Positions 1 through 45,947 of a stretch of 64,000 bases of DNA are shown piece after piece. The DNA lies in assembly GCA_964465945.1 (NCBI GenBank), contig CAYXMM010000002.1, forward strand, positions 66,691-130,690. The letters run 5' to 3'. The translations under genes were made by a program, and so were the position numbers. The notes beneath the pieces were generated by a model. That model was not told where the DNA came from. It made no database searches and saw nothing but the letters and a program-made list of their open reading frames with translations. The DNA is from an uncultured Hyphomicrobiales bacterium (GTDB taxonomy: Bacteria; Bacteroidota; Ignavibacteria; Kapaibacteriales; UBA2268). Position 1 is the first letter of the stretch. Each line of letters begins with the position of its first letter.

Positions 1-1275
1 TAAGTAATTGAGCCGAAGCATTATTTCCAAGAGCAAATGAAACATCTAAAGTTGAAGGTATCCATCGTTGAATAAGTTCCCCTTTATAATTAATATTATC
101 ATAAGTTGTATTTGATGTAACATATCCATCAAGAATTGGTCTTTGACCGAATACTTTAAAAACTATCGCTAAAGTACTTTTAGCATTTGGACTAACGTTT
201 ATTACTACATTACCAGAATAAGTTTGTTTTGAAGAACTTAATTTTAGAATCCTTTCTTTAAAATCTTCTCTTAAATTTGAATCAAGTAGCATTGAAATAC
301 TATCAATATTCATTTCGTCTAAAATATTGTTAATTTCAGTAGGAGTAATGTTATCTTGCCTTCCTATTAATCTATTGTATGTATTATCACATTTTAAATA
401 ATTATCATAGTCTTTTTTAATTGAAACTGATAACATTACCGCTTGTAATAACATTACATCTAAGTCTTCTACTTCATGATTTTCAACAGTGTTTTCTCCA
501 TTAGCAATAACCATTTCCGCTCTTCCTAACCAAGTCATAGCTTTAAAGAAGTTTCCTGCTCCAGCTTCTTTATAAAACCCTCTAACTTTAAATTGACTAA
601 AATCAAAAGGAACTTCAGATGATTCTGAAAATAACATTATTCGTTTATATTCTTCATCTTCAATAAACTTTAATATTTGCCCTATTTTACCATTATTTGT
701 AGTAGTGTTATTAATTAAGTGTTCTGTTATTGATAAATAATCTTCAAAATTCTTATATGCTTTAGAAAAGATTTTATAGTTATAACTGTTTACAGGAATA
801 CTATTTGTTATAATTCTGAACTCAGATTTTGAAAGTTTCATTTTAGATACAATTCCTTTCCACAAATTCTGAATTGATTTTAGCTCTATAATTTCTAAAA
901 TTTTCTGGAAATTAAAATGAGTTGAATAGAGCATTAAATCAGCTGAAATATAATTTGGAAAATCGTTTTTAAATACACTTCTATAAGCATCAAAATAAGT
1001 CTTAAACTGGTTTCGCTGTGAAACAACAAAACCATTCTTTTTTAAGAGCGAAATTTCATCCTCTGTTAAATTATATTTATTAATAACATTATCTAAATAT
1101 TTAATACTATCTATAGATGAGTTTATGTTCTGTAAATATTCTCCAGCAGGATACATATTTAGTAGTTGTTCAGAACTCATATCTTGATTTTTATTTAGAA
1201 ACTCTATATATTTTTCAACATCTAATGCCTGTGAAAATAATATAGTATTTAATATAAAAAGTATAGTTATCATTT
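1..1275 (-). CDS. secreted hypothetical protein, partial (C-terminus runs off window start); possibly DUF3160-like
   Basis: Minus-strand open frame from ATG at 1275..1273 (MITILFILNTILFSQA, signal-peptide-like) continuing without a stop to position 1. Absent from the ORF track because it is truncated by the window edge. Confidence 0.55.
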
Positions 1276-1512
1276 TGACTCCATATAATGTATTTTTTTA
1301 AATTTGTAAATTATATATATATAATAACACATAAGTTGCAAAAATATACCGCAAAAAAAAATAAATATTTTTAACAATATTTTAAAAAATTTTCTAAGTT
1401 AATAAATATAAGTAAATTATAATGATAAAAATTTTTAAATTATTTTTTAAAATTTTAGAAAGATGAATATTCTTTCATTTATAATTAGAAATATTTATCT
1501 ATAAATGATTAA

Positions 1513-1542
1513 AAAACTACGTAGTAGTTTCATGTCAATAGC
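1513..1542. repeat. 30-bp REP-like element AAAAACTACGTAGTAGTTTcATgTCAATAG; second copy abuts the RAYT gene at 40096..40125
   Basis: Near-identical 30-mer (core palindrome ACTACGTAGT) seen at both loci by direct reading. Confidence 0.6.
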
Positions 1543-1559
1543 AAAAAAACTTTAATCCA

Positions 1560-1640
1560 AACCTCTCTTCCATTGAGGGAAGTGCCAGTAAGGTGATGGG
1601 TGATTTTTTGCCGTCATATTGAGCGAAGCGAAATAGATAG
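1560..1640. repeat. GC-rich REP-like hairpin element (cttccattgagggaag hairpin; GTCATATTGAGCGAAGCGAAATAG motif)
   Basis: GC-rich island inside an AT-rich intergenic region. Shares the motif GTCATwcTGAGCGnAGCGAAgAAT with the element at 3555..3640. Confidence 0.45.
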
Positions 1641-1754
1641 AATATATATAGAATTATATCAAAGTACACTGCTTATTAAAATATTTATAGTTAAATTCGT
1701 TTTATAACTATGAAAATTATTTCTTACTTTTGTGAATAAAACAAATGAATAAAC

Positions 1755-1967
1755 ATGAATACAAGCGAAATAATAAATGAAATAAATAGAATGCCAATTT
1801 CAAAAAGAATGTATGTTATAGAAATGGCTATTCATTCTATAAGGAAAATCGAGAATGAAGATAAATTAATTGAAGCATCTAATCTTTTACTTTCGGATTA
1901 TTCTAATGACAAAAACTTAACTACATTTACAGATTTAGATTTTGAAGATTTTTATGAAACAAAATGA
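1755..1967 (+). CDS. small acidic-C-terminus protein, putative antitoxin partner of the downstream Kid/PemK-like toxin gene
   Basis: 70-aa ORF ending 14 bp inside the toxin reading frame (typical toxin-antitoxin overlap). No recognisable MazE/AbrB signature, so the role is inferred from position only. Confidence 0.4.
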   Translation: MNTSEIINEINRMPISKRMYVIEMAIHSIRKIENEDKLIEASNLLLSDYSNDKNLTTFTDLDFEDFYETK

Positions 1968-2292
1968 GATTTAGCTAATTAATTTAGATACAACTGTTGG
2001 AGCAGAAATAAAAAAAACTCGTCCTGCTGTTATTGTCAGCGATAATGCTTTAGGAGTATTACCATTAAAAATAATAGTACCAATTACAGATTGGAAAGAG
2101 AAATATGAGATTGCTCCTTGGATGATAAAAATTGAACCAAACCAATTGAATAATTTAAGTAAAGTATCCGCTGCTGATTGTATCCAAGTACGTTCTTTAT
2201 CCCAAGAACGCTTTATTAAGAAATTAGGTGTTCTGAAAGAAGCAGAAATGGATAGTATCCGTATAGGATTATCAAAAGTATTATCAATATAA
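1954..2292 (+). pseudogene. Kid/PemK (MazF)-family mRNA interferase toxin, interrupted by an in-frame TAG at 1972..1974 replacing the conserved Trp
   Basis: Translation MKQNEI*LINLDTTVGAEIKKTRPAVIVSDNALGVLPLKIIVPITDW... parallels the Kid/PemK N-terminus (MERGEIWLVSLDPTAGHEQQGTRPVLIVT) as recalled from memory. The stop falls at the position that is Trp in the recalled Kid/PemK N-terminus (needs alignment to confirm), and TGG->TAG is a single transition. The ATG at 1954 overlaps the upstream ORF. Confidence 0.6.
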
Positions 2293-2322
2293 AGTTAAAA
2301 AGTTAAAAAGTTAAAAAGTTAA
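2291..2322. repeat. perfect tandem repeat (AAAGTTAA)x4
   Basis: Direct reading. Lies between the toxin stop and the start of the 2349 gene. Confidence 0.9.
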
Positions 2323-2348
2323 ACTTTAAAATTATTAGGAAAACAAAA

Positions 2349-3554
2349 ATGAGAATATTTACTTTAGTTCTATCAATAGTTTTATTTCATAACATTTCTT
2401 TTGCAAAGTGGACGATTTATGATTCTACAGATGTTGATCCTTCTGGTAGATTAAAATATATGAATCGTTTTTTATATATAGATAACACAGATAATATTTG
2501 GATTTTAGCAAATAATGCAGATGAATTAATTAAATTTAATGAACAATCAACTGTATTTTTTGACACGAGTAACACCAATTTACCATTTATGCAAATAAGC
2601 TGTGCAACCCAGGGACCAAACGGAGATATGTATTTTGGAACTTACGAAGATTACACATCGCCAAATATGGCATCACTAATAAGATATGATGGCGAAAACT
2701 GGGAATCATTCAATCAATTTAACTCACCAATGCTTCCATATGGTATTCATGACATTTTAGTAACGGGCGAAGATGAATTTTGGTCTGCAAACGTAATTGG
2801 GTTATACCACTACAAAAAAGGCAAATGGAACTCCTACTTTGAAGATGAAAATTTATATAGGAGAGATATAAATAAATTAGCGATAGACAAAAACAATAAT
2901 TTATATATAGCTAATAATTATCGGGAATTATATTCAGCAGATTTGAATAAAGCAAATATAAAGTTTAATAAAGTAGCAGTTCCTCCGTTTCAGGGAGTTG
3001 GTTTATTAACCTGTGATGTTGATTCATCAAATAATATATGGCTTTATTATACAGGTACAGGGTCATTATATAAAAAAGAAGGAAACAACTGGAAGAATTA
3101 CGACACACTTGGACGTGCTTTAGTAACGAGAGACAAAAAATTATACTCACAAAGTCTTCGTAATATATATGAATATAAAGAAAATTCATATTGGGAAAAA
3201 ATATTAGTAACGCCCGATAGCGTTTTAGGTGGATTAATAAGTTTAAAAGCCAAAGACTCCAAAGGCAATTTTTGGTTTACATCTGGCAATAAATTAATAA
3301 AATACACCCCAGAAGCAAACAGCGTAAAAAAAGAATTAAACGTCAAAATATATCCAAACCCAAGCCAAAATACAATAAAAATAAGCGTAGAAGAGCCAAT
3401 AACAAAATTGACATTATACTCAATGAATTTATCCAAAATAAGCGAATACCCAGCAAACCATACCACCACCCAAGAAGTCGATATAAGCATCATACCTTCT
3501 GGCATTTACTTCATAAAAGTAAATGATGAATTAATTAAATTTGTGCGGGAGTAA
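2349..3554 (+). CDS. secreted beta-propeller-like protein with T9SS C-terminal sorting domain
   Basis: Signal peptide; repeated W/Y-containing blades; C-terminal KIYPNPSQNTIKISV...IPSGIYFIKV, typical of a Por/T9SS sorting domain. Confidence 0.6.
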   Translation: MRIFTLVLSIVLFHNISFAKWTIYDSTDVDPSGRLKYMNRFLYIDNTDNIWILANNADELIKFNEQSTVFFDTSNTNLPFMQISCATQGPNGDMYFGTYEDYTSPNMASLIRYDGENWESFNQFNSPMLPYGIHDILVTGEDEFWSANVIGLYHYKKGKWNSYFEDENLYRRDINKLAIDKNNNLYIANNYRELYSADLNKANIKFNKVAVPPFQGVGLLTCDVDSSNNIWLYYTGTGSLYKKEGNNWKNYDTLGRALVTRDKKLYSQSLRNIYEYKENSYWEKILVTPDSVLGGLISLKAKDSKGNFWFTSGNKLIKYTPEANSVKKELNVKIYPNPSQNTIKISVEEPITKLTLYSMNLSKISEYPANHTTTQEVDISIIPSGIYFIKVNDELIKFVRE

Positions 3555-3640
3555 CCCGTCATTCTGAGCGTAGCGAAGAATCTAATCAAAAAAATTCCCC
3601 TCTATCAGAGGGGTGTCGGCTTGCCGACGGGGTGTTGTAT
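3555..3640. repeat. GC-rich REP-like element / probable terminator hairpins (CCCCTCTatcAGAGGGG; GTCGGCttGCCGAC)
   Basis: Two perfect GC hairpins directly after the stop. Contains GTCATTCTGAGCGTAGCGAAGAATC, related to the element at 1616..1640. Confidence 0.5.
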
Positions 3641-3683
3641 TAAAAAATACTTCTTGAAAGTATAATGTAAATAAAAAAATACT

Positions 3684-19846: not shown

Positions 19847-22800
19847 TTGCGTATAAGCAGAAAGATATATATAACAATAACAATAATTTTTCTCTTGAGT
19901 TTAAGCAGCAATTCAGTGAGGGGAAGTTTGCTGTATAACGCAGGTCCGTTATATAGCATAGCACCTTTATACGCTTTCTCAAACTTAACTTCTACACAAA
20001 TAAACTACTTTCCTTACTTTTGGTTTCCTTTCATTGCTATGCCTCAATCTTACAGAACAGAAAGAGAACTTTTTAAACCCGATACAAGTTATAAATCAGC
20101 ATTATTTGAGCGATATGGTCGAAGATTTCATCCTGGCAAATATGATTATGGGGAGCCGAACTTGCCGGGTTATGAATTTAAAAGTGAGTATGATGATGAA
20201 ACTGGTGGTATGAAAGTTTATGAGACTTTTAATGGTCAAAAAGTTTTTTATGAGCGAGAACTTACATTAAATGAGTATTTGAATGAGGTTAAACAAAGGT
20301 ATCAGGAAAAAAAATGGGATTCTATTTCTTCTGATTATGATTTAAAGAAAGCATTTTCAGGTGGTGATTTAGCTCGACTAATGTCTACTGCGACTGGATT
20401 TTCAATTCCATTACCCCCTAATCCAATTTTTAGTATTTTCGGCTCGCCCAAGATAAGTATAAATGTCAATGGAGAGGTGAATGTGAGGGTGGGTTGGCGT
20501 TGGAATACCCAAAACTTAGGAACGGTATCTCAATTTGGTCAAACTCAATCAACACCTATTTTTTCGCAAGATATTCGAGTGAATGTAAGTGGTAGTATAG
20601 GTGATAAATTGAAATTGTCGACGGATTGGAATACTCGTCGAAGTTTCGATATGGATAATAGGTTTAAAATTGGCTTTGAAGGTGAAGATGATGATATAAT
20701 AAAGCTTGTTGAGGTTGGAAATGTATCAATGCCTTCTTATAATTCGCTTATAGGTGGAGGTCAAACTTTATTCGGGGTTAGAGCTGATTTTCAATTTGGA
20801 CCTTTATTCTTGAAAACTATTCTTTCACAAAGACGAGGTGAAAGAAGATATGTTGATGTTCAAGGTGGAAAGAACTTAAATCCTTTCACTTTACGTGCTT
20901 ATGACTATGTTCGTAATTATTTCTTTTTGAATGATGAATATAAACAAGTTTATAATGAATACTTTAAATATGCTACTCCTGTTTTACCAGTTCAATTTGA
21001 TAGTATAAGTGTAAAGGAAATTGAAGTATGGGAATCAACTACTCAACTTACAAATACTAAAGTTAGAGAGGCAGTAGCACATAATGTCTTGCCTAAATTA
21101 AGACGTGGGGAGAATTATCCGCAATCGTTAATTGATGCACCTATTACAGCGGGGAAAGTTGAAAGAGGTAGATTTCAACTACTTGATTCAACAAAATGGG
21201 AACTTGATTATAACTTAGGAACTCTAAGAATTGAGAATTTGTCACCAGATAGGACTTATGCAGTTTCGTATCGATTACAAGGTCCATCTCAATCATTAGA
21301 CGACGACCAAAGAATTGGGTATTTATCATCAGAAAGAGAGTTCAAAGAAGTGATGGTGCTTCAACTTGTTTATGTTCGTAATTTACAGCCAGGGTTCAAA
21401 GAACTTTGGGGAAGACAAATGAAGAATATTTACAATATTGGAGCTACTAATGTAGATGCGTCTTCAGCAAAAATTAATATTTGGTATTTACGTCCAAGTA
21501 ATGACTCTGTTGATGTGCTGGAAGGTTCAAATCAGAAAATCGTTACAATTTTTGGCGTTGATAGAACAGATAATAGCGGGCAGGTGCAACCTGATGGTAA
21601 ATATGATATGCGAGAGCCGTTTTTTAATGCGCAAAGAGGGGAAATTACTTTCCCAAGTGTTGAACCATTCAGAGCAGGACTTTATGCCTATTTTGATAGT
21701 TTAGGGAAAAGACAAGTTGCTGATAAATATGTTTATGGCGATGTTTATGATACAACTTGGGATGTTGCCAAAATAAATACAGCAAGAGATAGATTTATTA
21801 TTTCGGGTGAAGTTTCTGGTTCTTCTTCTAATAGAATCAGGTTAGGAGCATTTAACTTAGCCCCTGGTTCAGTTAAAATTTCTCTTGATGGTTCGCCTTT
21901 ACGAGAGTATCAAGATTTCGTTGTTGACTATTTTTCAGGGACGGTTCAACTTAGAAACCCAAGAGCAACCTTACCAAATGCAAATCTTAAAATTGAATAT
22001 GAGCAGGCAGATATATTCCAAGTTTCAACAAAAACTTTAGCAGGATTAAGGGCAGATTATAATTTAATTGATTCAAGGCGAGTCAGGTCTGATTTGGGAT
22101 TCACCTTTATGCACTATAATCAAAGCGCTGTAATCGACCAAGTGCAATTAGGGCAGGAACCAGTTGCAAATACTATGATGGGATTTGATGCAAAATTAAA
22201 TTGGGATACTCCTTGGCTTACTAAATTATTAGACTACTTACCTTTTTATGATACTAAAGCAAAATCAAATTTCGATTTTCTCGCTGAATGGGCTATGATG
22301 TTTCCTGAGCCAAATAAAAGAAAATCGGTTATACCAAGTGATGACGGTGAGTCAGTTGTTTATATTGATAATTTTGAAGCAGCTCAAAGAAGAATAACTT
22401 TGGGGTTAAATCCTTCGCTATGGTCACATAGTTCAGCTCCAGTTGATGAAACTATTGCCCCAACAGCAGAAGAACGAAACCTTTATCGTGGTTCAACTTT
22501 TTGGTATCAAAAATTTATCCCATGGATTAGACAGCGAGATGTTTACCCTGATAAACAAGTATTAATTGGACAAAATAACTTAAGCCCGTTGCAATTTTAT
22601 TTAGAGCCATACATAAGAGGTATTTATAATAATAACCCTGAGTTTCTTGACACTTTGAATCCTATGTATGATGAAAGCCAGCCACATTATATTTTAAGAA
22701 ATGGAGCAGATGGGAGATTAAATAAAGATAGAGTTTGGGGTGGTATGATGAGATTATTATCTTCATTCAATACTAACTTTGATAATGAAAATATTCAGTT

Positions 22801-25800
22801 CATTGAAATAATGATGAATGTATATAATCATGAACAGAATACAAAATTATATTTAGATTTAGGACAGATAAGCGAAGATGTTATTCCAAATGGGAAATTA
22901 AATACAGAAGATGGTATAACAGCAAAAAGCCCACTACCAAATGGCTTAATTGATATTGGAGAAGATGTCGGCATTGATGGATTAAGTAATGAAGAGGAAA
23001 AAACAAATACGGATCCAAATAAGTTAATTTTTCCATATCCATTGAGCTTGGAAGATGACCCAGCAAGAGATGATTATTTCTTTGACTTCAAACAAAATGT
23101 AAGCGACCAAGTTGAAAAAGACTTTGTCAAATATAATAATTTTGAAAATAATTCCAAAATGTCTGAAATGGGTGCTTTTCCAGATACTGAAATTTTAAAT
23201 GACAATAATGGGCAACAAATAGCCCTTGACAATAGCTATTTTAGATATGAAATTGATATTTCAAATTTGAACGAAAGCACTAATCCCCAAATAGTCGGAG
23301 GTAACCCATCTAAGGGTTGGTATTTATTTAGAATTCCAATTAGAAAACCAACTTCAAAAGTTGGTAATCCACAATTTACAAATATCCAATATGTAAGGTT
23401 AGCAGCACAGGGTGGAGTAGCACAAGTATGGATTGCAGATTGGGCTTTAGTTGGTTCTCAATGGCAGAGAATTAACACATTTCAATCAGTTCCTCCATCT
23501 GATAGTGCTATGCAAGTTTCTTTTGTTAATTCATTTGAAAATGGTTCATCTCCTGACTATTACACAATGCCTCCAGGTGTTCGCTCTCCAAGACAAATTA
23601 ATAGCCCTAATCCTCAACAGAATATTAGATTAAACGAGCAATCTCTAAGAGTTTGTGTGAGTAATTTGAAATTTGGTGAAGAAAGAATGGCAACAAGAAT
23701 TTTCCAAAATATGGATATATTCTATTATAAAAAATTGAAATTCTTTGTCCATGGCGATGGCTCTATGCCAAATGTAATTCAGCAAGGAACAATTCCTGAT
23801 GCTTATGTTTATATGCGGTTCGGTATTGATTCAAATAACTACTACGAATATAAACAACCATTAACATCGAATTGGGACGATATTGAAATTGATTTAAGGA
23901 AGCTTACTTCTATTAAACAAATCCGTGATAATAGTAAATTGAATGAAAGACAAGAGTTTCCAGCAGGAAATGGTAATCCGAATGCCACTTTTGCAATAAA
24001 AGGAACGCCAATCTTAACGCGTATAAGTTTCTTTGGATTTGGTGTTGCTAATCCAAGCGAACGTTTTCCTAATGACTTAACTACTTGTATCTGGGTTGAT
24101 GAGTTAAGATTAACTGATGCAGAAAATAGCAATGATTGGGCTGCAAATGTTTCATCTAACTTACAATTAGCTGATTTGGGAACTGTAACAGCATCAATGA
24201 ATACCAAGCAAGCGAATTTCCATAAACTCGAAGAAAGATTTGGGGATAGAAAAAATGATGGCAATTTCACCATTTCTATGCAAGGAAATTTAGAAAAACT
24301 TGCTCCAAAAGAGTTTAAACAAATGAAAATTCCAATTGCTTATACTCATGCTGAGTTATTATCTACTCCAAAATTTATAGCGAACACTGACCTTGCACTT
24401 GAAGAAGCAATGGCTATAACAAGGGATAATATTTTAGACAATGGAGGAAGTAAAGCAGAAGCAGATAGAGAAGCTAATAAACTTAAAGATAAATCAGAAT
24501 TACTTAAAGTTCAAGACCAATGGTCGCTTACTGGAATAAAATTAGGTATCCCAGTTAATCACTGGTCAATAAATGAAACTCTAAATAAGTTGAACTTTAA
24601 TTACACATATTCACAAGAATATACAAGAACCCCTGTCTATGAAAATAGGTTTAATTGGAATTGGACATTAGATGCTAATTATACAAATTCACTCCCTGAT
24701 ATTCTTGCTTTTAGCCCAACAAAATTCTTAAAAGATGTGCCTGTAATTGGGGTTTATGGAGATTGGAAATTGAACTTATTACCTTCGAATATTGGCTTTG
24801 GATTAAATATGACTAGGGGGAGACAGACAGAACAATCAAGATTCTTAACCTTTGCTTCACCTGTTGTAAGAAGTTTCTTTGCAGATAGGAAAGCTAATTT
24901 TACTTGGAAACTTAGCCAAGGTGGATTATTATCGCCAAGTATTGATTATTCGTTCAATACAAGAAGTTCATTAATTGATTTAGAGCATGATGAGTTTGGA
25001 AATCAAAGAACTGGGAGTCAAATTTCAAATGCGATGTTTTCAAATGGCTTCGATTTTGGTAGAAATACTACTCATAATCAAATGTTCACAATAAACTTTA
25101 AACCAATTTTACCAGTTGGATTTTTAAATAAATACTTGGATATGAATGGTTCTTATAATGTGAATTACTCATGGAATGACCCATTAATGCCAGACCCTGC
25201 TGTGCGTGATAGAGCAAAAAATGCTACTTATAATGGCCAGTTTCGTTATAATATAAATGTAAGTTTAAGAAGCTTTGGTGACGAAATTTTTGGAATTACT
25301 CCAAGTAAGATGTTTGGTAAAAGAAAAGATGATAAGACAGGCGAAGAAGTAACTGATTGGGGAAGTCAAATATTATTAGCTTTCAAATCCATTCTTTTAG
25401 ATTATGAGAAAATTAATATTACTTTAAGCCAAACAAATAATTCTACTAATCCAGGTGTTTTTGGTGGAACTGGTATGAGTAATTTCTGGGGTAGAGGGAT
25501 TACTGGAAGAGAGAGTTTGAATAATTTCGGACCAAGTTTCGCTTATCAAATGGGATTAACGTCTAATCCTCATGGTGGGTTTAATATATCTCCTTCAAGT
25601 AGTTTTCCATTTTTCTCTTTTGATTCTTACCCTGGTTTGAGACCACCAAATGGGCGATATCAAGATAATTACAGACAAAGCACAGATTTGAATATTGCTA
25701 CCAATAGACCTCTTTGGGAAGGAGCAACACTTGATTTAACATGGAAAACTTCACAAGCGTTTAATAGAAACCAAACTGTAATAACGGATGTTAATGGTGT

Positions 25801-26734
25801 TCCGACTTTTACAAATGTAATTGCTATGCAAACTATTGACAAATCATACATTTCTTTACCAACTATTTTCGGTTTAAATTTATTTGGTAACACAGTTGAA
25901 GATGTTGTGAAAGGTTTTGAGTTACGAAGAGATGCGATAGTCCAGAGGACAGATATTGATACACTTGAGAAAAATAAATTGTTAAACAGAGCATTAGCTC
26001 AATCGTTCTATGAAGAATTAGAAGCTTTCTCATTCTCTGGTGTTGGTCAATTAGGTCATTTCTTACCTTCAATCAACTGGGGAATAAGGTGGACTGGAAT
26101 TGAAAAATGGACAATTTGGGGAGGATATTTGAAGAAGGTTCAAGTAGATCATAACTATACGTCAAACTATTCCGAAGCGGTTCAAATCACTGATAATGGT
26201 CGAGTAATCCAAAATCAACAAGTTACAACGGGCTTCTCGCCATTAATAGGGGTGAATGTCTCATTTGATGAAGCAAAAACCAAAGGAACTTTGACTGGTT
26301 CTATTAGGTGGAATAGAACGCAAGGATATAACTTAAATGCTGCAGCAAAATCAGTAGTAACCTCACAAACAACAAATGAAATTGCGGTGCAAGCAAACTA
26401 TACAATGAATAGCTTTTCAATTCCATTTTTGGGCTTTCAACTCAAAAATGAGCTTGAGTTCAGCTTCTTGGGTTCATATAAATTCAATGGACGAGGAACA
26501 TTCGACGTATTCGACCCAACAAGTTTTTCTGGCGGACAAGAACAAGGTCGAGTATTAGATGGAAGCACTGTTGTATCAGTCGAGCCAAGAGTAAGGTATT
26601 CTCTATCAGAAAGATTAACCGCATCATTTTTCGTAAGATATGACGGTACATTCAACGTAGGAGCTTCAAACCCAGGTTTCCATACTACCCAAGTAGGTCT
26701 TGATTTCCGACTTTCAATCGCTGGTGGTAGATAG
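19847..26734 (+). CDS. sprA: giant outer-membrane protein, SprA/Sov-like T9SS translocon
   Basis: 2295-aa single ORF with a signal peptide and beta-rich composition, ending in a beta-barrel-like ...GLDFRLSIAGGR. Size and genome context (many T9SS cargo proteins) fit SprA. No sequence search was possible. Confidence 0.6.
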   Translation: MRISRKIYITITIIFLLSLSSNSVRGSLLYNAGPLYSIAPLYAFSNLTSTQINYFPYFWFPFIAMPQSYRTERELFKPDTSYKSALFERYGRRFHPGKYDYGEPNLPGYEFKSEYDDETGGMKVYETFNGQKVFYERELTLNEYLNEVKQRYQEKKWDSISSDYDLKKAFSGGDLARLMSTATGFSIPLPPNPIFSIFGSPKISINVNGEVNVRVGWRWNTQNLGTVSQFGQTQSTPIFSQDIRVNVSGSIGDKLKLSTDWNTRRSFDMDNRFKIGFEGEDDDIIKLVEVGNVSMPSYNSLIGGGQTLFGVRADFQFGPLFLKTILSQRRGERRYVDVQGGKNLNPFTLRAYDYVRNYFFLNDEYKQVYNEYFKYATPVLPVQFDSISVKEIEVWESTTQLTNTKVREAVAHNVLPKLRRGENYPQSLIDAPITAGKVERGRFQLLDSTKWELDYNLGTLRIENLSPDRTYAVSYRLQGPSQSLDDDQRIGYLSSEREFKEVMVLQLVYVRNLQPGFKELWGRQMKNIYNIGATNVDASSAKINIWYLRPSNDSVDVLEGSNQKIVTIFGVDRTDNSGQVQPDGKYDMREPFFNAQRGEITFPSVEPFRAGLYAYFDSLGKRQVADKYVYGDVYDTTWDVAKINTARDRFIISGEVSGSSSNRIRLGAFNLAPGSVKISLDGSPLREYQDFVVDYFSGTVQLRNPRATLPNANLKIEYEQADIFQVSTKTLAGLRADYNLIDSRRVRSDLGFTFMHYNQSAVIDQVQLGQEPVANTMMGFDAKLNWDTPWLTKLLDYLPFYDTKAKSNFDFLAEWAMMFPEPNKRKSVIPSDDGESVVYIDNFEAAQRRITLGLNPSLWSHSSAPVDETIAPTAEERNLYRGSTFWYQKFIPWIRQRDVYPDKQVLIGQNNLSPLQFYLEPYIRGIYNNNPEFLDTLNPMYDESQPHYILRNGADGRLNKDRVWGGMMRLLSSFNTNFDNENIQFIEIMMNVYNHEQNTKLYLDLGQISEDVIPNGKLNTEDGITAKSPLPNGLIDIGEDVGIDGLSNEEEKTNTDPNKLIFPYPLSLEDDPARDDYFFDFKQNVSDQVEKDFVKYNNFENNSKMSEMGAFPDTEILNDNNGQQIALDNSYFRYEIDISNLNESTNPQIVGGNPSKGWYLFRIPIRKPTSKVGNPQFTNIQYVRLAAQGGVAQVWIADWALVGSQWQRINTFQSVPPSDSAMQVSFVNSFENGSSPDYYTMPPGVRSPRQINSPNPQQNIRLNEQSLRVCVSNLKFGEERMATRIFQNMDIFYYKKLKFFVHGDGSMPNVIQQGTIPDAYVYMRFGIDSNNYYEYKQPLTSNWDDIEIDLRKLTSIKQIRDNSKLNERQEFPAGNGNPNATFAIKGTPILTRISFFGFGVANPSERFPNDLTTCIWVDELRLTDAENSNDWAANVSSNLQLADLGTVTASMNTKQANFHKLEERFGDRKNDGNFTISMQGNLEKLAPKEFKQMKIPIAYTHAELLSTPKFIANTDLALEEAMAITRDNILDNGGSKAEADREANKLKDKSELLKVQDQWSLTGIKLGIPVNHWSINETLNKLNFNYTYSQEYTRTPVYENRFNWNWTLDANYTNSLPDILAFSPTKFLKDVPVIGVYGDWKLNLLPSNIGFGLNMTRGRQTEQSRFLTFASPVVRSFFADRKANFTWKLSQGGLLSPSIDYSFNTRSSLIDLEHDEFGNQRTGSQISNAMFSNGFDFGRNTTHNQMFTINFKPILPVGFLNKYLDMNGSYNVNYSWNDPLMPDPAVRDRAKNATYNGQFRYNINVSLRSFGDEIFGITPSKMFGKRKDDKTGEEVTDWGSQILLAFKSILLDYEKINITLSQTNNSTNPGVFGGTGMSNFWGRGITGRESLNNFGPSFAYQMGLTSNPHGGFNISPSSSFPFFSFDSYPGLRPPNGRYQDNYRQSTDLNIATNRPLWEGATLDLTWKTSQAFNRNQTVITDVNGVPTFTNVIAMQTIDKSYISLPTIFGLNLFGNTVEDVVKGFELRRDAIVQRTDIDTLEKNKLLNRALAQSFYEELEAFSFSGVGQLGHFLPSINWGIRWTGIEKWTIWGGYLKKVQVDHNYTSNYSEAVQITDNGRVIQNQQVTTGFSPLIGVNVSFDEAKTKGTLTGSIRWNRTQGYNLNAAAKSVVTSQTTNEIAVQANYTMNSFSIPFLGFQLKNELEFSFLGSYKFNGRGTFDVFDPTSFSGGQEQGRVLDGSTVVSVEPRVRYSLSERLTASFFVRYDGTFNVGASNPGFHTTQVGLDFRLSIAGGR

Positions 26735-27120: not shown

Positions 27121-27825
27121 TTAATCTCTGTTTCCGCCAAGTAATCTTAGTAAGAATAAGAATAAGTTGATGAAGTCAAGATATAAAGTTAATGCTCCTA
27201 AGATTGCAGCTTTTGAAGCAATTTCATTTCCTTGTGATTGAACTTCATACATTTCTTTTAGTTTTTGAGTGTCGTAAGCTGTTAAGCCAGCAAATACAAT
27301 TACACCAATGATTGAAATCATCATACTAAGCATTGAGCTCGCGAAAAAGAAATTTGCTATTGTTGCAAGAATAATTCCGACTAAACCCATAAACATAAAT
27401 CTTCCTACCCCTGATAAGTCTTTTTTTGCAGTATAACCATAAAAGCTAAGTGCGGCAAATGAACCGGCAGTTATAAAAAACACATTTGCTATCGACTCTC
27501 CTGAATATACTAATGCCAGAGTTGAAAAGGTAATTCCAGTTAATCCAGAATAAAGAACAAACAGGGCAGAGGCAACCATTGAACTCATTTTATTTACTGC
27601 AGCCGAGAGAGCAAACACAAGCCCTAATGTTGCAAAGAAAAATAACCACATATAGTCTATAACACTATATACAAGACCACTATCATAGAAGTAGTAAGAA
27701 ACTCCAGCGGTAATACCAAGACCAGCTACCATCCAAGAATATACTTTATTTAAAAAAGCTCTTTGGAGTTGAGCGATTTCACTATCAGTTTTGTAAACCG
27801 AATTGTATGTATAACCTGTCTCCAT
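27121..27825 (-). CDS. Bax inhibitor-1/YccA (TMBIM) family membrane protein
   Basis: Seven-TM profile and a short charged C-terminal tail. Confidence 0.75.
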   Translation of the reverse strand: METGYTYNSVYKTDSEIAQLQRAFLNKVYSWMVAGLGITAGVSYYFYDSGLVYSVIDYMWLFFFATLGLVFALSAAVNKMSSMVASALFVLYSGLTGITFSTLALVYSGESIANVFFITAGSFAALSFYGYTAKKDLSGVGRFMFMGLVGIILATIANFFFASSMLSMMISIIGVIVFAGLTAYDTQKLKEMYEVQSQGNEIASKAAILGALTLYLDFINLFLFLLRLLGGNRD

Positions 27826-27843
27826 TTTGTCCTCTAAATTAAT

Positions 27844-28536
27844 TTAAAAATAAATCCCAACTGAAACTGATAAATAATTTTTTTTATCATTGTTAGTAAA
27901 AGTGTCTACCAAGTTTAAGACGTGAAAGCGTGCGTCTAAGTTTAATTTTAAAAGTGCTAAATTTAAATCAAAGCCAGCACCATAAGACATTCCTAATGAA
28001 TTGTATGCTCCTGTTTCTTCAATTGGAATTGTAATTGTTTTATCATCAGTAATTGGTACATCAGTTGTAAATGTAAATTTATTGTAAGAAAATTCACTTG
28101 AAGCATAGAAATTAAGAACATCTAAAGAAAGAAAGTAAAAATCAATACCAGCAGTGATTGGAATAATATTCTGAAAGGTGAAAATTGTTGCTAAAATTTC
28201 GTTCGTTTCAGGATGTTTAACTTCTAATCGGCTTTGTTGGAAGCGATGATAACCAACACTACCTTGGAGTTTGAAATAGTCATTTAAAGGAATTTTTACT
28301 CTTATACCTAAATGATAACCAAACCCAGCACCTTCTCGGATCATATTTCCAATAATTGTATCGTTCTCAACCGAGCTTATACTTTTAAATACTGGTTGAA
28401 AATCTCTATTATAAATATTATTAATTTGGTTATTTGGAGTTGATAAACCAATTTCAACACCAAAATCTACATCATCATTAGCTTTTGCTATGATATTAGT
28501 GAGAAGTAATACACCTAATAATATATATAATTTCAT
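27844..28536 (-). CDS. small outer-membrane beta-barrel protein
   Basis: Signal peptide, alternating beta-strand pattern, C-terminal ...SVGIYF aromatic beta-signal. Confidence 0.6.
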   Translation of the reverse strand: MKLYILLGVLLLTNIIAKANDDVDFGVEIGLSTPNNQINNIYNRDFQPVFKSISSVENDTIIGNMIREGAGFGYHLGIRVKIPLNDYFKLQGSVGYHRFQQSRLEVKHPETNEILATIFTFQNIIPITAGIDFYFLSLDVLNFYASSEFSYNKFTFTTDVPITDDKTITIPIEETGAYNSLGMSYGAGFDLNLALLKLNLDARFHVLNLVDTFTNNDKKNYLSVSVGIYF

Positions 28537-42561: not shown

Positions 42562-43215
42562 CTACTCCTCCTCACAAATTTTGATTTCTGCTCTTTGTAA
42601 ATAACTATCTAAATTGTTTTGTCTATCAAATATTAAAGCAATTGTGTATTGCAATTTTGTTATAGTTAAAACATTGAATTTAGGTAATGGTATTAGGCAA
42701 CGAAAACCATCAACATATACTAAAATAAATGATTCTATTGTATTATTATTATATGATAAATGATAATGAAAACTGCTTGCTTTTGGATCAGGAAATTTAT
42801 TAGCCCACGTCTCTACAAAATTATCATTTAATTCATCATTAATGTTATGCGAATATAACTTTAATTTTGGATCATTTTTATAAATAGATTTGTCGAATTC
42901 ATTATCTTCACTTGTTTCCCAATCAAAAATAGAATTAGTCATAGCTACAAATTCAAGAATTTCATTTTTACTCATATCACTTAATTTCTTCGGTGGTGGA
43001 TCAAAGTGATTTGCTATTGCTTTAGAGCTAAATAAGGCACCAGATAGAAAATATAATAATACGCTAATTGGTTCAAAAATTCCTAAGTCGTTAAATATTA
43101 TCCATAAAATTGTAATTATAATTGCTACAACTGCCTTTATAAAAGCAGTTACAAATATTTTTGAAATATTATTTCTTAAAAACTTAGCAAATTTAATAAC
43201 TTTCGTTTCCATCAC
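42562..43215 (-). CDS. hypothetical membrane-anchored protein, translationally coupled to the MmeI-like gene
   Basis: Two N-terminal TM helices plus a ~150-aa soluble domain. The start ATG overlaps the stop of the R-M gene (ATGA at 43212..43215). Confidence 0.5.
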   Translation of the reverse strand: MMETKVIKFAKFLRNNISKIFVTAFIKAVVAIIITILWIIFNDLGIFEPISVLLYFLSGALFSSKAIANHFDPPPKKLSDMSKNEILEFVAMTNSIFDWETSEDNEFDKSIYKNDPKLKLYSHNINDELNDNFVETWANKFPDPKASSFHYHLSYNNNTIESFILVYVDGFRCLIPLPKFNVLTITKLQYTIALIFDRQNNLDSYLQRAEIKICEEE

Positions 43216-45947
43216 CCCCTCCTCTTCTTTTTACCGGTTGTGAATAAATCGGCGGTGTATTTTTCGTATAGTTGGAATAGGTATTCTAATCGCTCGGCTT
43301 CGGTGGTGAAAGGGGCGGAGCGATAGGATTTGTCAACTGCTTTGTCTAATTCGTTGTGGGCTTTTACTAAGTCTGGGGGCATTGTTAATGGGTCGTATAA
43401 TACTGCCAATGAGGACTCTGGGTATTTTGCTCTGATGTCTAATACTTGTTGGGCTTTTTCTTCGATTGCTTGTATTTGTTTTTCTGTAGGGTTTTCTGGC
43501 CAAGGATAGTTATTATAAACTATATCTTTTGAATATCTATAATCACTTTTCAATCTTCCACAGACTGTTTTTACCCAATTCATGTGCATAATTGAAGATA
43601 ATACACCAAAATGGAAATGAGTCGCATTTGGAAGTGAGAACATAGTATCACTAACAATCACGTCTTTTTTAAAAAATCCAATAGGAATATATTTCCTATT
43701 TTCAGAAGTTGTTCTTGGGATTATTAGATAATCATTCTCTGGTTGAGTTATTTGTCTAAATAATGTATGAGAAGTATAATCCCTGGTAGACTTAGCTTTA
43801 CTTTCACTTCTGAATTTTCTAACTAATTCAATTCTTTTTAAAATAAAGGGCATTTTTTTTAATTCATCAGGTTTAATGTCTTTCAACCATATGCACCATC
43901 TTTTTTTGTTATTTAAAAATTCTCTTGCACTTATAAATGGTTTTATTACATTTGAAGATAATGGATCATTTATAACAAAATCTTTTTTTTCTTCATCATC
44001 TAACAAGTAATGGCCACCATCAGTTGGTTTATTTCCATATTTCATTGATGGAACATTACATACTGGAAATGTTCTATTTTGGATTAATATATTAGGAGCA
44101 TCAATCAAATAAGGGTTTATATTTTTAACTTTAATTACGTATCCATCACCTTTAATGTCTGGGTAATCATAGATTTTTTTATTTTTAATATCATAATTTG
44201 CAAAACCAATTATTACACAATAGACAGCGGCTTTATCTTTAGCTTCATTAGACCATTTGAAAGTACGATGAGCGAAGTGAATATATATATTATATTTTTC
44301 TAATAAAGTATACCATAAAATTCCTACTTGTTCACCTTGGACTAATGAATTTGTTGATACTAAAGCTACTTTTATATTAGTGCCTTGAATGTATTTTAAT
44401 GATAAATAAAACCAAGCAGAAACAAAATCAAGTACCCCATTTGCTTTTATATCATTTAGAACATTTGTCATATCTAATTTTTGTTCTTTTGTTTGTAAAT
44501 GATGTCCAATAAATGGTGGATTACCAATAATATAAGATAGTTCGTTTTTGTTGATTACATCGTTCCAATCAAGTTTTAAGGCGTTTGCATTATGGATATT
44601 AGCGGATTTGACAAGTGGGATACGAGTTAAGTATTGTCCGAACTCATTACTGACTTTTATATTCATTTGGTGGTCGATAAGCCACATAGCAACTTCGGCG
44701 ATACGAGCAGGGAATTCTTCGAGTTCGATACCATACATCATATCTACATTGAGTTTAATCATTTCGCTAATTTCGAGAATTTGCTGACCATCGTCGTATA
44801 GTTTTTTTAGGATTTCGATTTCAAGTAGGCGTAGTTCTCTATAAGTGATAATTAGGAAATTGCCACAACCACAAGCTGGGTCAAGGAATTTGAGTTTGCT
44901 TAGTTTATCGTGGAATTGAGTAAGTTTATTTTTGTTATGTTTTACATTATTAAATTCTTCCCATAATTCATCAAGGAAAAGTGGCTTAATAAGTTTTAAG
45001 ATGTTTTTTTCTGAAGTGTAATGAGCACCGAGATTTCTTCTTTCTGTTGGGTCCATAACAGATTGGAACATAGAGCCGAAAATCGCAGGTGAGATTTTAC
45101 TCCAATCGAGATAGCAACATTCGAGAAGGGTTTGTCGCATCTTTGAATCAAAACTTGCAATAGGAAGAACTTCTTCGAATAACTTTCCATTTATATAAGG
45201 AAAAGCGTTGAGTTGTTCGTCGATGTTTTTAAATCTTTTTTCTCTTGGGGTATTAAGAACTTGGAAGAGTTCTTGTAAGCGAGAGGCAAGGTCAGAGCCA
45301 TCTGGTTGGGTTCTTTCTTCTATGAAAAATTGGAAAGATTGCCTATCGAAAATACCAGTATCTTCTGCGAATAAACAGAATAAAATTCTAACAAGATAAA
45401 CTTCGAGTTCGTGGCCAGAATAGCCAATTTCTTCTAATCTATCATGAAATTTACCGAGTAATTCAGCTGCTTTGATATTAACAGGGTCTTGTTCTTTGAA
45501 TACTTTTTGTTCGTAGCCAGCGATGAAATCAAAGTAATGTAGATTATCGAGGAGTTCAGAAATTAAAAATATGTGTTTGGTGTTTTCTTCCAAATGATAA
45601 AGATGGAATTGATTAAAGTCTGAAACTAAAATATATCTTGGGAGTTCATATTGCGGAATATTATATAAATAATCTTTTGCTTGTTGGAATGCTTTTTCAA
45701 GGTCTTTGCCTCTGCTTTTCATTTCAACAATAATAGTTGCCTTCCAGAAAAGGTCGATATATCCGTCGTTTTCGTTAAGTTTTTTTACTTTATGTTCGAA
45801 GGTGGCGATTCTTTTTCTTTCAACACCAAAGATTTTGAAGAAGTCTTCAAGAAATGGTTTTGCTTCGGCATCTTCGCTTGTTTCGTCTTTCCATTTGTCA
45901 ATAAAAGCGACTGCTCTTTGTTTTATTTCGTTTTTGCTAAGGGGCAT
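43212..45947 (-). CDS. MmeI-family Type IIL restriction-modification enzyme (fused PD-ExK endonuclease + gamma-class N6-adenine methyltransferase + TRD)
   Basis: N-terminus MPLSKNEIKQRAVAFIDKW...AKPFLEDFFKIFGV...DLFWKATIIVEMKSRGKDL parallels the MmeI N-terminal nuclease domain (D...E-x-K), as recalled from memory. SAM motif I FLDPACGCGNFL, motif IV IIGNPPFIG and the conserved YRELRLLEIE / HYTSEKNILKLIKPLFLDEL blocks are present. 911 aa. Confidence 0.8.
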   Translation of the reverse strand: MPLSKNEIKQRAVAFIDKWKDETSEDAEAKPFLEDFFKIFGVERKRIATFEHKVKKLNENDGYIDLFWKATIIVEMKSRGKDLEKAFQQAKDYLYNIPQYELPRYILVSDFNQFHLYHLEENTKHIFLISELLDNLHYFDFIAGYEQKVFKEQDPVNIKAAELLGKFHDRLEEIGYSGHELEVYLVRILFCLFAEDTGIFDRQSFQFFIEERTQPDGSDLASRLQELFQVLNTPREKRFKNIDEQLNAFPYINGKLFEEVLPIASFDSKMRQTLLECCYLDWSKISPAIFGSMFQSVMDPTERRNLGAHYTSEKNILKLIKPLFLDELWEEFNNVKHNKNKLTQFHDKLSKLKFLDPACGCGNFLIITYRELRLLEIEILKKLYDDGQQILEISEMIKLNVDMMYGIELEEFPARIAEVAMWLIDHQMNIKVSNEFGQYLTRIPLVKSANIHNANALKLDWNDVINKNELSYIIGNPPFIGHHLQTKEQKLDMTNVLNDIKANGVLDFVSAWFYLSLKYIQGTNIKVALVSTNSLVQGEQVGILWYTLLEKYNIYIHFAHRTFKWSNEAKDKAAVYCVIIGFANYDIKNKKIYDYPDIKGDGYVIKVKNINPYLIDAPNILIQNRTFPVCNVPSMKYGNKPTDGGHYLLDDEEKKDFVINDPLSSNVIKPFISAREFLNNKKRWCIWLKDIKPDELKKMPFILKRIELVRKFRSESKAKSTRDYTSHTLFRQITQPENDYLIIPRTTSENRKYIPIGFFKKDVIVSDTMFSLPNATHFHFGVLSSIMHMNWVKTVCGRLKSDYRYSKDIVYNNYPWPENPTEKQIQAIEEKAQQVLDIRAKYPESSLAVLYDPLTMPPDLVKAHNELDKAVDKSYRSAPFTTEAERLEYLFQLYEKYTADLFTTGKKKRRG

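What the first reader, a model, noticed from the sequence alone, without database searches (positions are those of the whole stretch)
1954..2292. Kid/PemK(MazF)-type toxin gene knocked out by a single TGG->TAG change at the conserved Trp, while the upstream partner ORF is intact
Reading from the ATG at 1954 gives MKQNEI-stop-LINLDTTVGAEIKKTRPAVIVS.... As recalled from memory, this parallels the Kid/PemK N-terminus EIWLVSLDPTAGHEQQGTRPVLIVT, and the TAG (1972..1974) sits at what would be the Trp. The remaining ~100 codons are open and toxin-like. This is either a freshly inactivated toxin (antitoxin retained, the usual decay route for a toxin-antitoxin pair) or, less likely, a regulated read-through or suppression site.
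Basis: partly seen in the sequence, partly recalled or inferred. Interest (0 to 1): 0.6.

Follow-up and report, generated by a model that had tools for sequence, protein, structure and literature searches.

The report
Dead MazF toxin gene, antitoxin kept
A MazF/PemK-type toxin gene is really knocked out by a stop codon at a conserved tryptophan while its small partner gene stays intact, which is the ordinary way toxin-antitoxin pairs decay; sister strains killed the same toxin with a different mutation.

Summary
ATG 1954 opens a 112-codon frame with TAG at 1972-1974 and no other interruption before TAA 2290-2292. With Trp restored, it is a full-length PemK/MazF toxin (Pfam PF02452, 82 bits). 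The TAG codon is TGG/Trp in all 80 homologous loci examined.

The upstream 70-aa ORF (1755-1967) is this toxin subfamily's conserved partner, with the same 14-nt overlap. It is intact here and belongs to no annotated family.

The stop is not an assembly error. An independent assembly is identical, and a distinct strain (14 differences) has the same TAG. That strain has also lost the antitoxin to a nonsense codon, so the TAG allele is harmless.

The window is not recoded: TAG ends 6 of 41 long ORFs, and it holds no suppressor tRNA.

Orthologous alleles on 12 other contigs keep TGG but carry a 1-nt deletion in the A8 run (2010-2017). The toxin therefore died at least twice in this population. 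No intact copy above 80% identity exists in the protein database. Across the family, 8 of 79 scorable toxins are disrupted against 0 of 75 antitoxins.

Verdict: an ordinary toxin-first decay of a type II toxin-antitoxin pair. Interest is low, apart from the two independent lesions, a 73-nt recombination tract and the unannotated antitoxin family.

The parts
1755..1967 (+). Intact 70-aa partner ORF, the presumed antitoxin. It ends in the family motif ...LTTFTDLDFEDFYETK, and its stop codon TGA (1965-1967) lies inside the toxin's first codons.
   Evidence: The same ORF sits at the same relative position in at least 77 of 80 homologous loci (tblastn; ORF walk). It carries the consensus residue at all 29 invariant or near-invariant columns. 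It has no Pfam, NCBIfam, PADLOC or PDB match. AlphaFold2 predicts an all-helical fold, mean pLDDT 74.
1954..2292 (+). PemK/MazF-family toxin pseudogene: 112 codons, interrupted only at codon 7.
1972..1974 (+). In-frame TAG replacing the conserved Trp codon TGG (G->A at 1973). The next base is C (CTA).
   Evidence: The codon is TGG in 80/80 homologous loci and in 18 of 20 retrieved loci of the same species. TAG is present in L081 and L098.
1990..1992 (+). ACA (Thr) where at least 95% of homologues and all sister alleles have Pro (CCA). This second, missense departure is linked to the TAG.
2010..2017 (+). A8 homopolymer in codons 19-22 (ATA AAA AAA ACT). It is in frame here, but it is A7 (a frameshift) in every sister allele that keeps TGG.
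   Evidence: Alignment A2 and the allele table. A-runs of 7 or more occur at this spot in 21 of 79 homologues.
1968..2040 (+). Mosaic (recombination or gene-conversion) tract. It holds 10 of the 28 differences from the orthologous locus L083, including TAG/TGG, ACA/CCA and A8/A7. Seven of the others are synonymous.
   Evidence: Binomial P = 3e-10 for this clustering.
2122..2292 (+). Residual 56-aa ORF, from the first ATG/GTG/TTG after the TAG. Gene callers report this instead of the toxin. It covers only the C-terminal half of the fold.
   Evidence: Public assemblies call it as a 56-aa gene with a weak PemK_toxin hit.
1696..3649 (+). Cassette that contains the pair: upstream region, 70-aa ORF, broken toxin, and a 401-aa Reg_prop/Por_Secre_tail gene (2349-3554). 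It is single-copy here and tandemly repeated in sister populations.

Best explanation
This is a type II toxin-antitoxin module of the MazF/PemK (Kid-like) endoribonuclease family. Its toxin gene is a genuine pseudogene. A G->A change at 1973 turned the conserved Trp7 codon into TAG, so translation ends after six residues. The next canonical start (2122) could give only the C-terminal 56 residues. No active toxin is made.

The 70-aa upstream gene remains intact. It is the conserved cognate partner of this toxin subfamily and is presumed to act as a helical antitoxin with an acidic, aromatic C-terminal tail. By inference it is still expressed as an orphan antitoxin.

Shown here: the lesion, the homology, the partner's conservation, the reality of the base call, a second and independent lesion in sister strains, and frequent toxin-only disruption across the family. 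Inferred: the intact family members are RNases neutralised by the 70-aa protein, selection against toxicity or relaxed selection drove the loss, and the 73-nt tract carrying the lesion moved by gene conversion between copies.
For: 1. Full-length PemK_toxin match and Trp at the stop column in every relative.
2. TAG is an ordinary stop in the window: 6 of 41 long ORFs end in it. The only tRNA in the window is Asp.
3. The same A at 1973 appears in a Logan assembly that is 100% identical over 3615 nt but has a different contig end. It also appears in L098, a distinct strain with 14 differences.
4. L098 additionally has antitoxin E33 GAG->TAG. That would be lethal if the TAG toxin allele were active and nothing else neutralised it.
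5. All 18 other retrieved loci of the species (12 contigs) keep TGG but have A7 instead of A8, which is a frameshift at about codon 20. No TGG+A8 combination was seen.
6. No intact protein above 80% identity exists among 5.8 billion clusters.
7. In 80 genomes of other species, 8 toxins carry nonsense or frameshift lesions at eight different sites, and all 7 of their antitoxins that could be scored are open. Overall 8/79 toxins against 0/75 antitoxins are disrupted (Fisher p = 0.0066).
8. Toxin-first erosion is the documented pattern. In Photorhabdus, toxin-only pseudogenes number 185, both genes 186, and antitoxin-only 8 (PMC13617665).
9. Other genes checked in the window are intact, so this is not a generally broken assembly.
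Against: There is no read-level, transcript or protein data. Apart from the stop and P13T (F77I is shared by most of the species' alleles), the frame shows no further decay. Its 2 departures at columns conserved at 95% or more are matched or exceeded by 10% of intact homologues.

Differences among the broken alleles are strongly synonymous-biased (pN/pS 0.04-0.20). Gene conversion from functional relatives explains this most simply, but continued selection on a leaky product would also fit. The stop context UAG-C is, from my memory of E. coli work, a weak terminator. Only the 64-kb window, not the whole genome, could be screened for suppressor tRNAs.
Confidence: 0.88

Rival explanations
1. The toxin is silenced but switchable or leaky rather than dead. 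Low-level read-through of UAG (followed by C) in this lineage, and transcriptional or ribosomal slippage on the A7 run in sister alleles, would yield small amounts of full-length toxin. The frame would then remain under selection, as in a phase-variable or dosage-limited toxin.
For: Both lesions are of the kind that can be bypassed: a stop codon, and a homopolymer one base short. Downstream of either lesion, no allele has acquired a further stop or frameshift. Differences among alleles are mostly synonymous (pN/pS 0.04-0.20). The codon after the stop is CTA in TAG alleles and TTA in TGG alleles. The antitoxin is retained in 20 of 21 loci.
Against: The synonymous bias sits in discrete tracts, as expected if segments were imported from functional relatives. 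L098 lost its antitoxin while carrying TAG. Neither lesion is conserved outside this species: codon 7 is TGG in 80/80 loci, and the other family members are disrupted at unrelated sites. TAG is a normal terminator in the window. Near-cognate read-through would rarely insert Trp.
Confidence: 0.05
2. The TAG is a sequencing or assembly artefact, and the real genome has TGG.
For: A single-base difference in what appears to be a metagenome-derived contig. No reads were available to me.
Against: The Logan contig from SRR32005135 has the same base. It ends at window position 3615, so it is a different assembly, and it is reported in 4 samples. L098, from run SRR28646830, differs at 14 other positions and has the same TAG. 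The TAG is in perfect linkage with 9 other nearby variants.
Confidence: 0.02
3. A shortened product is made by re-initiation downstream and has a function of its own, such as dominant-negative binding of related toxins or antitoxins. It could be the 56-aa ORF from ATG 2122, or a near-full-length protein from a non-canonical start such as ATT 1978.
For: The 56-aa ORF is open and identical or nearly so in many assemblies. The frame after the stop is undamaged.
Against: No ATG, GTG or TTG occurs in frame between 1975 and 2121. The 56-aa piece lacks the N-terminal half of the PemK fold, including the conserved KKTRP and PITDW segments. In sister alleles the frameshift lies downstream of any such near-N-terminal start, so the two lesions would not give equivalent products.
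Confidence: 0.03

Closest known systems
Kid/PemK (plasmids R1/R100) and MazF endoribonuclease toxins; nearest solved structures are M. tuberculosis MazF7 (5wyg), MazF9 (5hjz, 6kyt) and Kid (1m1f)
   Same: Full-length PF02452 domain of the same length (about 110 aa). It has the N-terminal 'EIWLxxLDP' strand and the conserved 'RPxxVxS' arginine segment. The toxin gene lies downstream of, and overlaps, a small partner gene.
   Different: Only distant sequence similarity to the characterised proteins (E 6e-8 to 7e-4). No NCBIfam equivalog threshold is reached (23 bits against a cut-off of 129 or more). The partner is not a recognisable MazE, PemI/Kis or AbrB-type antitoxin. The toxin ORF here is interrupted at codon 7.
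Erosion of chromosomal toxin-antitoxin systems: toxin-first pseudogenisation, as described for Photorhabdus (PMC13617665). From my own knowledge, the same was described for ccdO157 in E. coli by Mine et al. 2009, a paper I found only cited in reviews.
   Same: The toxin is inactivated by a point lesion while the antitoxin stays intact. One strain shows the later stage with both genes dead (L098). Independent lesions occur in different lineages.
   Different: This is a different toxin family and phylum (an uncultured relative of Ignavibacteria/Kapabacteria). Within one population there are two alternative lesions, they sit in one 73-nt recombination tract, and no intact allele has been sampled.
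Putative addiction module component family PF09720 (Unstab_antitox)
   Same: A small helical protein encoded directly upstream of a toxin. Two of 19 family members give a faint hit (E 0.06).
   Different: The hit is not significant, and the window's own protein has no hit at all. Membership is not established.

Membership tests
PemK/MazF toxin family (Pfam PF02452) | Domain match above the curated threshold over the full profile | tested here: met
   82.3 bits against a 23.1 cut-off; residues 2-110 on profile 1-109/109, using the conceptual translation with W at codon 7.
PemK/MazF toxin family (Pfam PF02452) | Sequence similarity to experimentally solved MazF/Kid toxins | tested here: met
   MazF7 5wyg 6e-8; MazF9 4e-7; Kid 1m1f 1.6e-6 over residues 1-108.
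PemK/MazF toxin family (Pfam PF02452) | Conserved core residues retained, such as the Arg of 'KKTRP' and the Thr of 'PITDW'. From my knowledge, these correspond to the catalytic Arg and Thr of MazF. | tested here: met
   T22 and T45 are in invariant columns and R23 in a near-invariant one of alignment A1, and the window has them all. The Arg aligns with the 'HRPAVVVS' segment of MazF7. Their catalytic role is assumed, not tested.
PemK/MazF toxin family (Pfam PF02452) | Endoribonuclease activity or toxicity | not testable with these tools
   Needs expression of the repaired and the native alleles.
Functional type II toxin-antitoxin module | Uninterrupted toxin ORF | tested here: not met
   TAG at codon 7. 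It is therefore filed as a decayed module, not a functional one.
Functional type II toxin-antitoxin module | Small partner gene immediately upstream, co-oriented, overlapping, and conserved together with the toxin | tested here: met
   The 70-aa ORF is present at the same offset in at least 77 of 80 loci.
MazE / PemI-Kis (AbrB/SpoVT-type) or other annotated antitoxin families | Profile match to a known antitoxin family | tested here: not met
   No Pfam, NCBIfam or PADLOC hit. No PDB sequence hit with a 19-sequence profile. No Foldseek PDB hit. Only a faint PF09720 hit in 2 of 19 members.
Programmed stop-codon recoding (suppression, read-through, pyrrolysine) | The stop codon is conserved at that site among relatives | tested here: not met
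   TGG in 80/80 homologous loci and in 18 of 20 same-species loci.
Programmed stop-codon recoding (suppression, read-through, pyrrolysine) | TAG is not used as an ordinary terminator, or a UAG-reading tRNA is present | tested here: not met
   6 of 41 long ORFs end in TAG. The only tRNA in the window is tRNA-Asp. The rest of the genome could not be screened.

The most novel reading that the evidence does not exclude
In this population the toxin may be kept in a reversibly 'off' or very low-output state rather than being dead. Two alternative lesions could both be bypassed: UAG in a weak UAG-C context, and an A7/A8 homopolymer one slip away from the correct frame. They sit in a 73-nt segment that is exchanged by gene conversion between cassette copies, the antitoxin is retained, and the rest of the frame stays clean. 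This would be a phase-variable MazF toxin linked to tandem cassettes of variable T9SS-secreted proteins.
Probability: 0.05. Interest if true: 0.55.

Novelty: new member of a known kind. Interest (0 to 1): 0.22.

Why it matters
In itself it matters little. It is a clean, well-supported case of the known rule that chromosomal toxin-antitoxin pairs decay toxin-first. It also explains why annotation pipelines report only a 56-aa 'PemK (weak)' fragment at this locus.

Three by-products are modestly useful:
- A widespread MazF subfamily (thousands of members in Bacteroidota, Ignavibacteriota and relatives) is always paired with a 70-aa helical protein that no family database recognises. This protein is a candidate new antitoxin family.
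- About 10% of this subfamily's toxins in representative genomes are disrupted while their antitoxins are intact. That is an annotation-independent estimate of toxin erosion.
- One natural population shows three stages side by side, with no intact allele sampled: toxin dead by nonsense, toxin dead by homopolymer frameshift, and both genes dead.

Tried and rejected
- Exact DNA pattern around the stop (R at 1973) against genome contigs and metagenome contigs gave 0 matches. The source species is absent from those collections. It was reached instead through exact-protein look-ups.
- Window-wide TAG recoding is rejected by stop usage and by the absence of other TAG-split genes. The two adjacent same-frame ORFs at 27121-28536 are different genes, Bax1-I and an OMP beta-barrel.
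- No suppressor tRNA is present in the window.
- The test for relaxed constraint on the rest of the toxin was inconclusive. The window has 2 departures at columns conserved at 95% or more, against a mean of 0.48, and 10% of intact homologues have 2 or more.
- The sigma-70 promoter and terminator scan of 1300-2400 did not exceed the shuffled expectation. The repeat scan showed only AT-rich noise plus the 8-nt repeat.
- Rfam found nothing in 1250-2400 even at E of 1 or less. The GC-richer island at 1535-1640 does not fold better than shuffles and is single-copy.
- The antitoxin could not be assigned to a family. Pfam, NCBIfam, PADLOC, a PDB profile search and Foldseek all gave nothing. The AlphaFold2 model has only moderate confidence (pLDDT 74, pTM 0.38).
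- There is no second copy of the toxin or antitoxin in the window.

Full report
**1. The observation**

Reading the window directly confirms the description. ATG at 1954 is followed by MKQNEI, then TAG at 1972-1974, then 105 uninterrupted codons to TAA at 2290-2292. The upstream ORF 1755-1967 encodes 70 aa and is open. Its TGA lies inside the toxin's first codons, giving a 14-nt overlap, ATGAAACAAAATGA. The first ATG, GTG or TTG in frame after the stop is at 2122, which leaves a 56-aa ORF.

**2. The homology is real and the stop sits on the conserved Trp**

- With W at codon 7, the conceptual protein matches Pfam PemK_toxin from end to end (E 3.5e-23, 82.3 bits against a 23.1 cut-off).
- It has 3643 database homologues, the best 79-80% identical over the whole length.
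- In an alignment with 19 of them, the N-terminus MKQNEI-W-LINLD is almost invariant and the stop column is Trp in all 19.
- At the DNA level, codon 7 is TGG in 80 of 80 homologous loci fetched from representative genomes.
- The nearest solved structures are M. tuberculosis MazF7 and MazF9 and the Kid toxin (1m1f, residues 1-108, E 1.6e-6). The printed MazF7 alignment puts its 'DLWLVSL' on 'EIWLINL'.

**3. The partner gene**

A 70-aa ORF homologous to 1755-1967 lies at the same offset upstream of the toxin in at least 77 of the 80 loci. It carries a strongly conserved C-terminal motif, ELTAFTxLDFEDFYE(A/T)K. It is therefore the cognate partner of this MazF subfamily.

The window's copy has the consensus residue at every invariant or near-invariant column. 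The family matches nothing in Pfam, NCBIfam, PADLOC or the PDB. Only 2 of 19 members give a faint PF09720 'addiction module component' hit (E 0.06). AlphaFold2 predicts three helices and a short C-terminal helix at moderate confidence (pLDDT 74). That it is an antitoxin is inferred from its position and co-conservation; it has not been shown.

**4. Not recoding**

Of the 41 ORFs in the window with at least 150 codons, 26 end in TAA, 9 in TGA and 6 in TAG. No other gene is split by an in-frame TAG. The only tRNA in the window is tRNA-Asp. The other genes examined are intact and ordinary: GAPDH, a Mur ligase, KdtA, an amino-acid kinase family protein, SprA, an E2 acyltransferase, an MmeI-type restriction-modification enzyme and others. 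The best named relatives of the GAPDH are Kapabacteria and Ignavibacteria at 73-77% identity. The window also carries T9SS genes. The source is therefore probably an uncultured member of that group, at about 30% G+C.

**5. Not an assembly error**

Exact-protein look-ups show that the window's proteins are held on an NCBI contig of 395,101 bp. A Logan assembly of SRR32005135 (L081) is 100% identical over 3615 nt, including the TAG. That contig ends at window position 3615, so it is a separate assembly, and it is recorded in 4 samples. L098, from run SRR28646830, differs from the window at 14 positions over 1.7 kb and carries the same TAG.

**6. What the sister strains show**

The antitoxin look-up does not depend on the state of the toxin. 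Together with the look-up of the 56-aa fragment, it returned 21 loci on 14 contigs. They fall into two perfectly linked haplotypes:

| Haplotype | Codon 7 | Next codon | Codon 13 | A-run | Antitoxin residue 57 | Found in |
|---|---|---|---|---|---|---|
| Nonsense | TAG | CTA | ACA (Thr) | A8 | T | window, L081, L098 |
| Frameshift | TGG | TTA | CCA (Pro) | A7 | A | the other 18 loci, on 12 contigs |

The A7 allele is a 1-nt deletion in the homopolymer at window 2010-2017 and shifts the frame at about codon 20. No TGG+A8 (intact) allele was seen. The best intact protein in the 5.8-billion-cluster database is only 80% identical. The same orthologous toxin has therefore been inactivated in two independent ways, and no working copy of it has been sampled.

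L098 also has the antitoxin codon E33 changed from GAG to TAG (window 1850-1851). Both of its genes are dead. This is the expected next stage, and it argues that the TAG toxin allele is harmless.

**7. Mosaic structure**

L083 is the orthologous locus with the same flanking genes. Across window 255-3468 it differs from the window at only 28 positions:
- 10 lie in 1968-2040 (P = 3e-10 for this clustering).
- 15 lie in 3260-3434 (P = 2e-12).
- 3 lie elsewhere.

In the first tract, 7 differences are synonymous, one is the nonsense change, one is P13T and one is the indel. The stop therefore sits in a short segment exchanged by recombination or gene conversion with a diverged copy. It is not a lone point mutation on an identical background.

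Such exchange is plausible. In sister populations the cassette (window about 1696-3649) is tandemly repeated. It comprises the upstream region, the 70-aa ORF, the broken toxin and a roughly 400-aa Reg_prop/Por_Secre_tail gene. Its toxin-antitoxin part is 94-98% identical between copies, while the secreted-protein gene is only 77-84% identical.

**8. Family-wide context**

Among the 80 loci from other species, 8 toxins are disrupted at eight different sites:

| Locus | Lesion |
|---|---|
| L014 | K59 TAA |
| L018 | E52 TAA |
| L044 | codon 69 TAA |
| L054 | codon 104 TAA |
| L062 | W47 TAG |
| L065 | K21 TAA |
| L067 | E18 TAA plus an insertion |
| L080 | frameshift |

The antitoxin is open in all 7 of these that can be scored. 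Overall, 8/79 toxins against 0/75 antitoxins are disrupted (Fisher p = 0.0066). A-runs of 7 or more at the IKKT codons occur in 21 of 79 homologues, so this site is a built-in slippage hot spot.

The literature describes the same asymmetry. In Photorhabdus, toxin-only pseudogenes number 185, both genes 186, and antitoxin-only 8 (PMC13617665).

**9. Mechanism and rivals**

The best-supported account (confidence about 0.88) is a decayed MazF/PemK-type module. The toxin is truncated after six residues, and the orphan antitoxin is retained.

The weak point is that the frame is otherwise clean. It has only 2 departures at highly conserved columns, which is not significant. Differences among the broken alleles are mostly synonymous (pN/pS 0.04-0.20). 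I attribute this to tracts imported from functional relatives.

It leaves a small probability (about 0.05) that the lesions are leaky or switchable, through UAG-C read-through or A7/A8 slippage. The rule that UAG followed by C terminates weakly comes from my memory of E. coli work; I did not test it here. An assembly artefact (0.02) and a functional truncated product (0.03) are unlikely, for the reasons given under each rival.

**10. Verdict**

The phenomenon is ordinary: a new member of a known kind. The secondary points of interest are the two independent lesions within one population, the 73-nt conversion tract, the unannotated 70-aa partner family and the tandem cassette array.

Noticed in passing
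window 1696-3649; L082, L085, L086, L088 (ERZ27321040 NODE_2372, ERZ27245862 NODE_3947): The unit is tandemly repeated (period about 2.06 kb) in sister populations but single-copy here. It comprises the upstream region, the 70-aa ORF, the broken toxin and a roughly 400-aa Reg_prop/Por_Secre_tail (T9SS cargo) gene. The toxin-antitoxin part is 94-98% identical between copies, while the cargo gene is only 77-84% identical.
   Followed up: partly
window 2292-2325: An 8-nt tandem repeat (AAAGTTAA, about 4 copies) lies between the toxin stop and the start of the 401-aa gene. L089 lacks one unit (8-nt deletion at 2316-2323), so the copy number varies between strains.
   Followed up: partly
window 3260-3434: A second recombination-like tract lies in the C-terminal region of the 401-aa gene, which includes its Por_Secre_tail domain. 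It holds 15 of the 28 differences from the orthologous L083 locus (P = 2e-12).
   Followed up: no
window 1755-1967 and L001-L080: The 70-aa partner family has the conserved C-terminus ELTAFTxLDFEDFYE(A/T)K and a predicted all-helical fold. It has no match in Pfam, NCBIfam, PADLOC or the PDB and is named only 'hypothetical protein' by its sources. It is a candidate unannotated antitoxin family for a widespread MazF subfamily.
   Followed up: partly
L098 1079-1339 (= window 1850-1851): In the strain from SRR28646830, the antitoxin is also knocked out (E33 GAG->TAG) alongside the TAG toxin allele, so both genes are dead.
   Followed up: yes
L014, L018, L044, L054, L062, L065, L067, L080: Eight of 80 homologous toxins in other species carry their own nonsense or frameshift lesions while the antitoxin stays open. 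L067 also has an insertion of about 41 codons near the toxin's C-terminus.
   Followed up: partly
window 1725-1732: TACTTTTG lies 22 nt upstream of the 70-aa ORF's ATG. It fits the Bacteroidetes-type -7 promoter motif TAnnTTTG, which I recall from memory. It lies in a stretch that is invariant in the five alleles aligned. Whether this organism uses such promoters is unknown.
   Followed up: no
window 1535-1640: A GC-richer island sits in the 24% G+C divergent intergenic region between the DUF3160/Por_Secre_tail gene (- strand, running off the window start) and the toxin-antitoxin pair. It is single-copy, has no Rfam hit, and folds no better than shuffles.
   Followed up: yes
window 43212-45947 (-) and 19847-26734 (+): A complete MmeI-type restriction-modification enzyme (all five MmeI domains) and a 2295-aa SprA (T9SS) gene. 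Several Por_Secre_tail cargo genes are also present.
   Followed up: no
protein cluster of window 2122-2289: The 90%-identity cluster that holds the 56-aa fragment also contains unrelated NuoH-like proteins (P0124, P0126). This is a clustering artefact of the database, not biology.
   Followed up: yes
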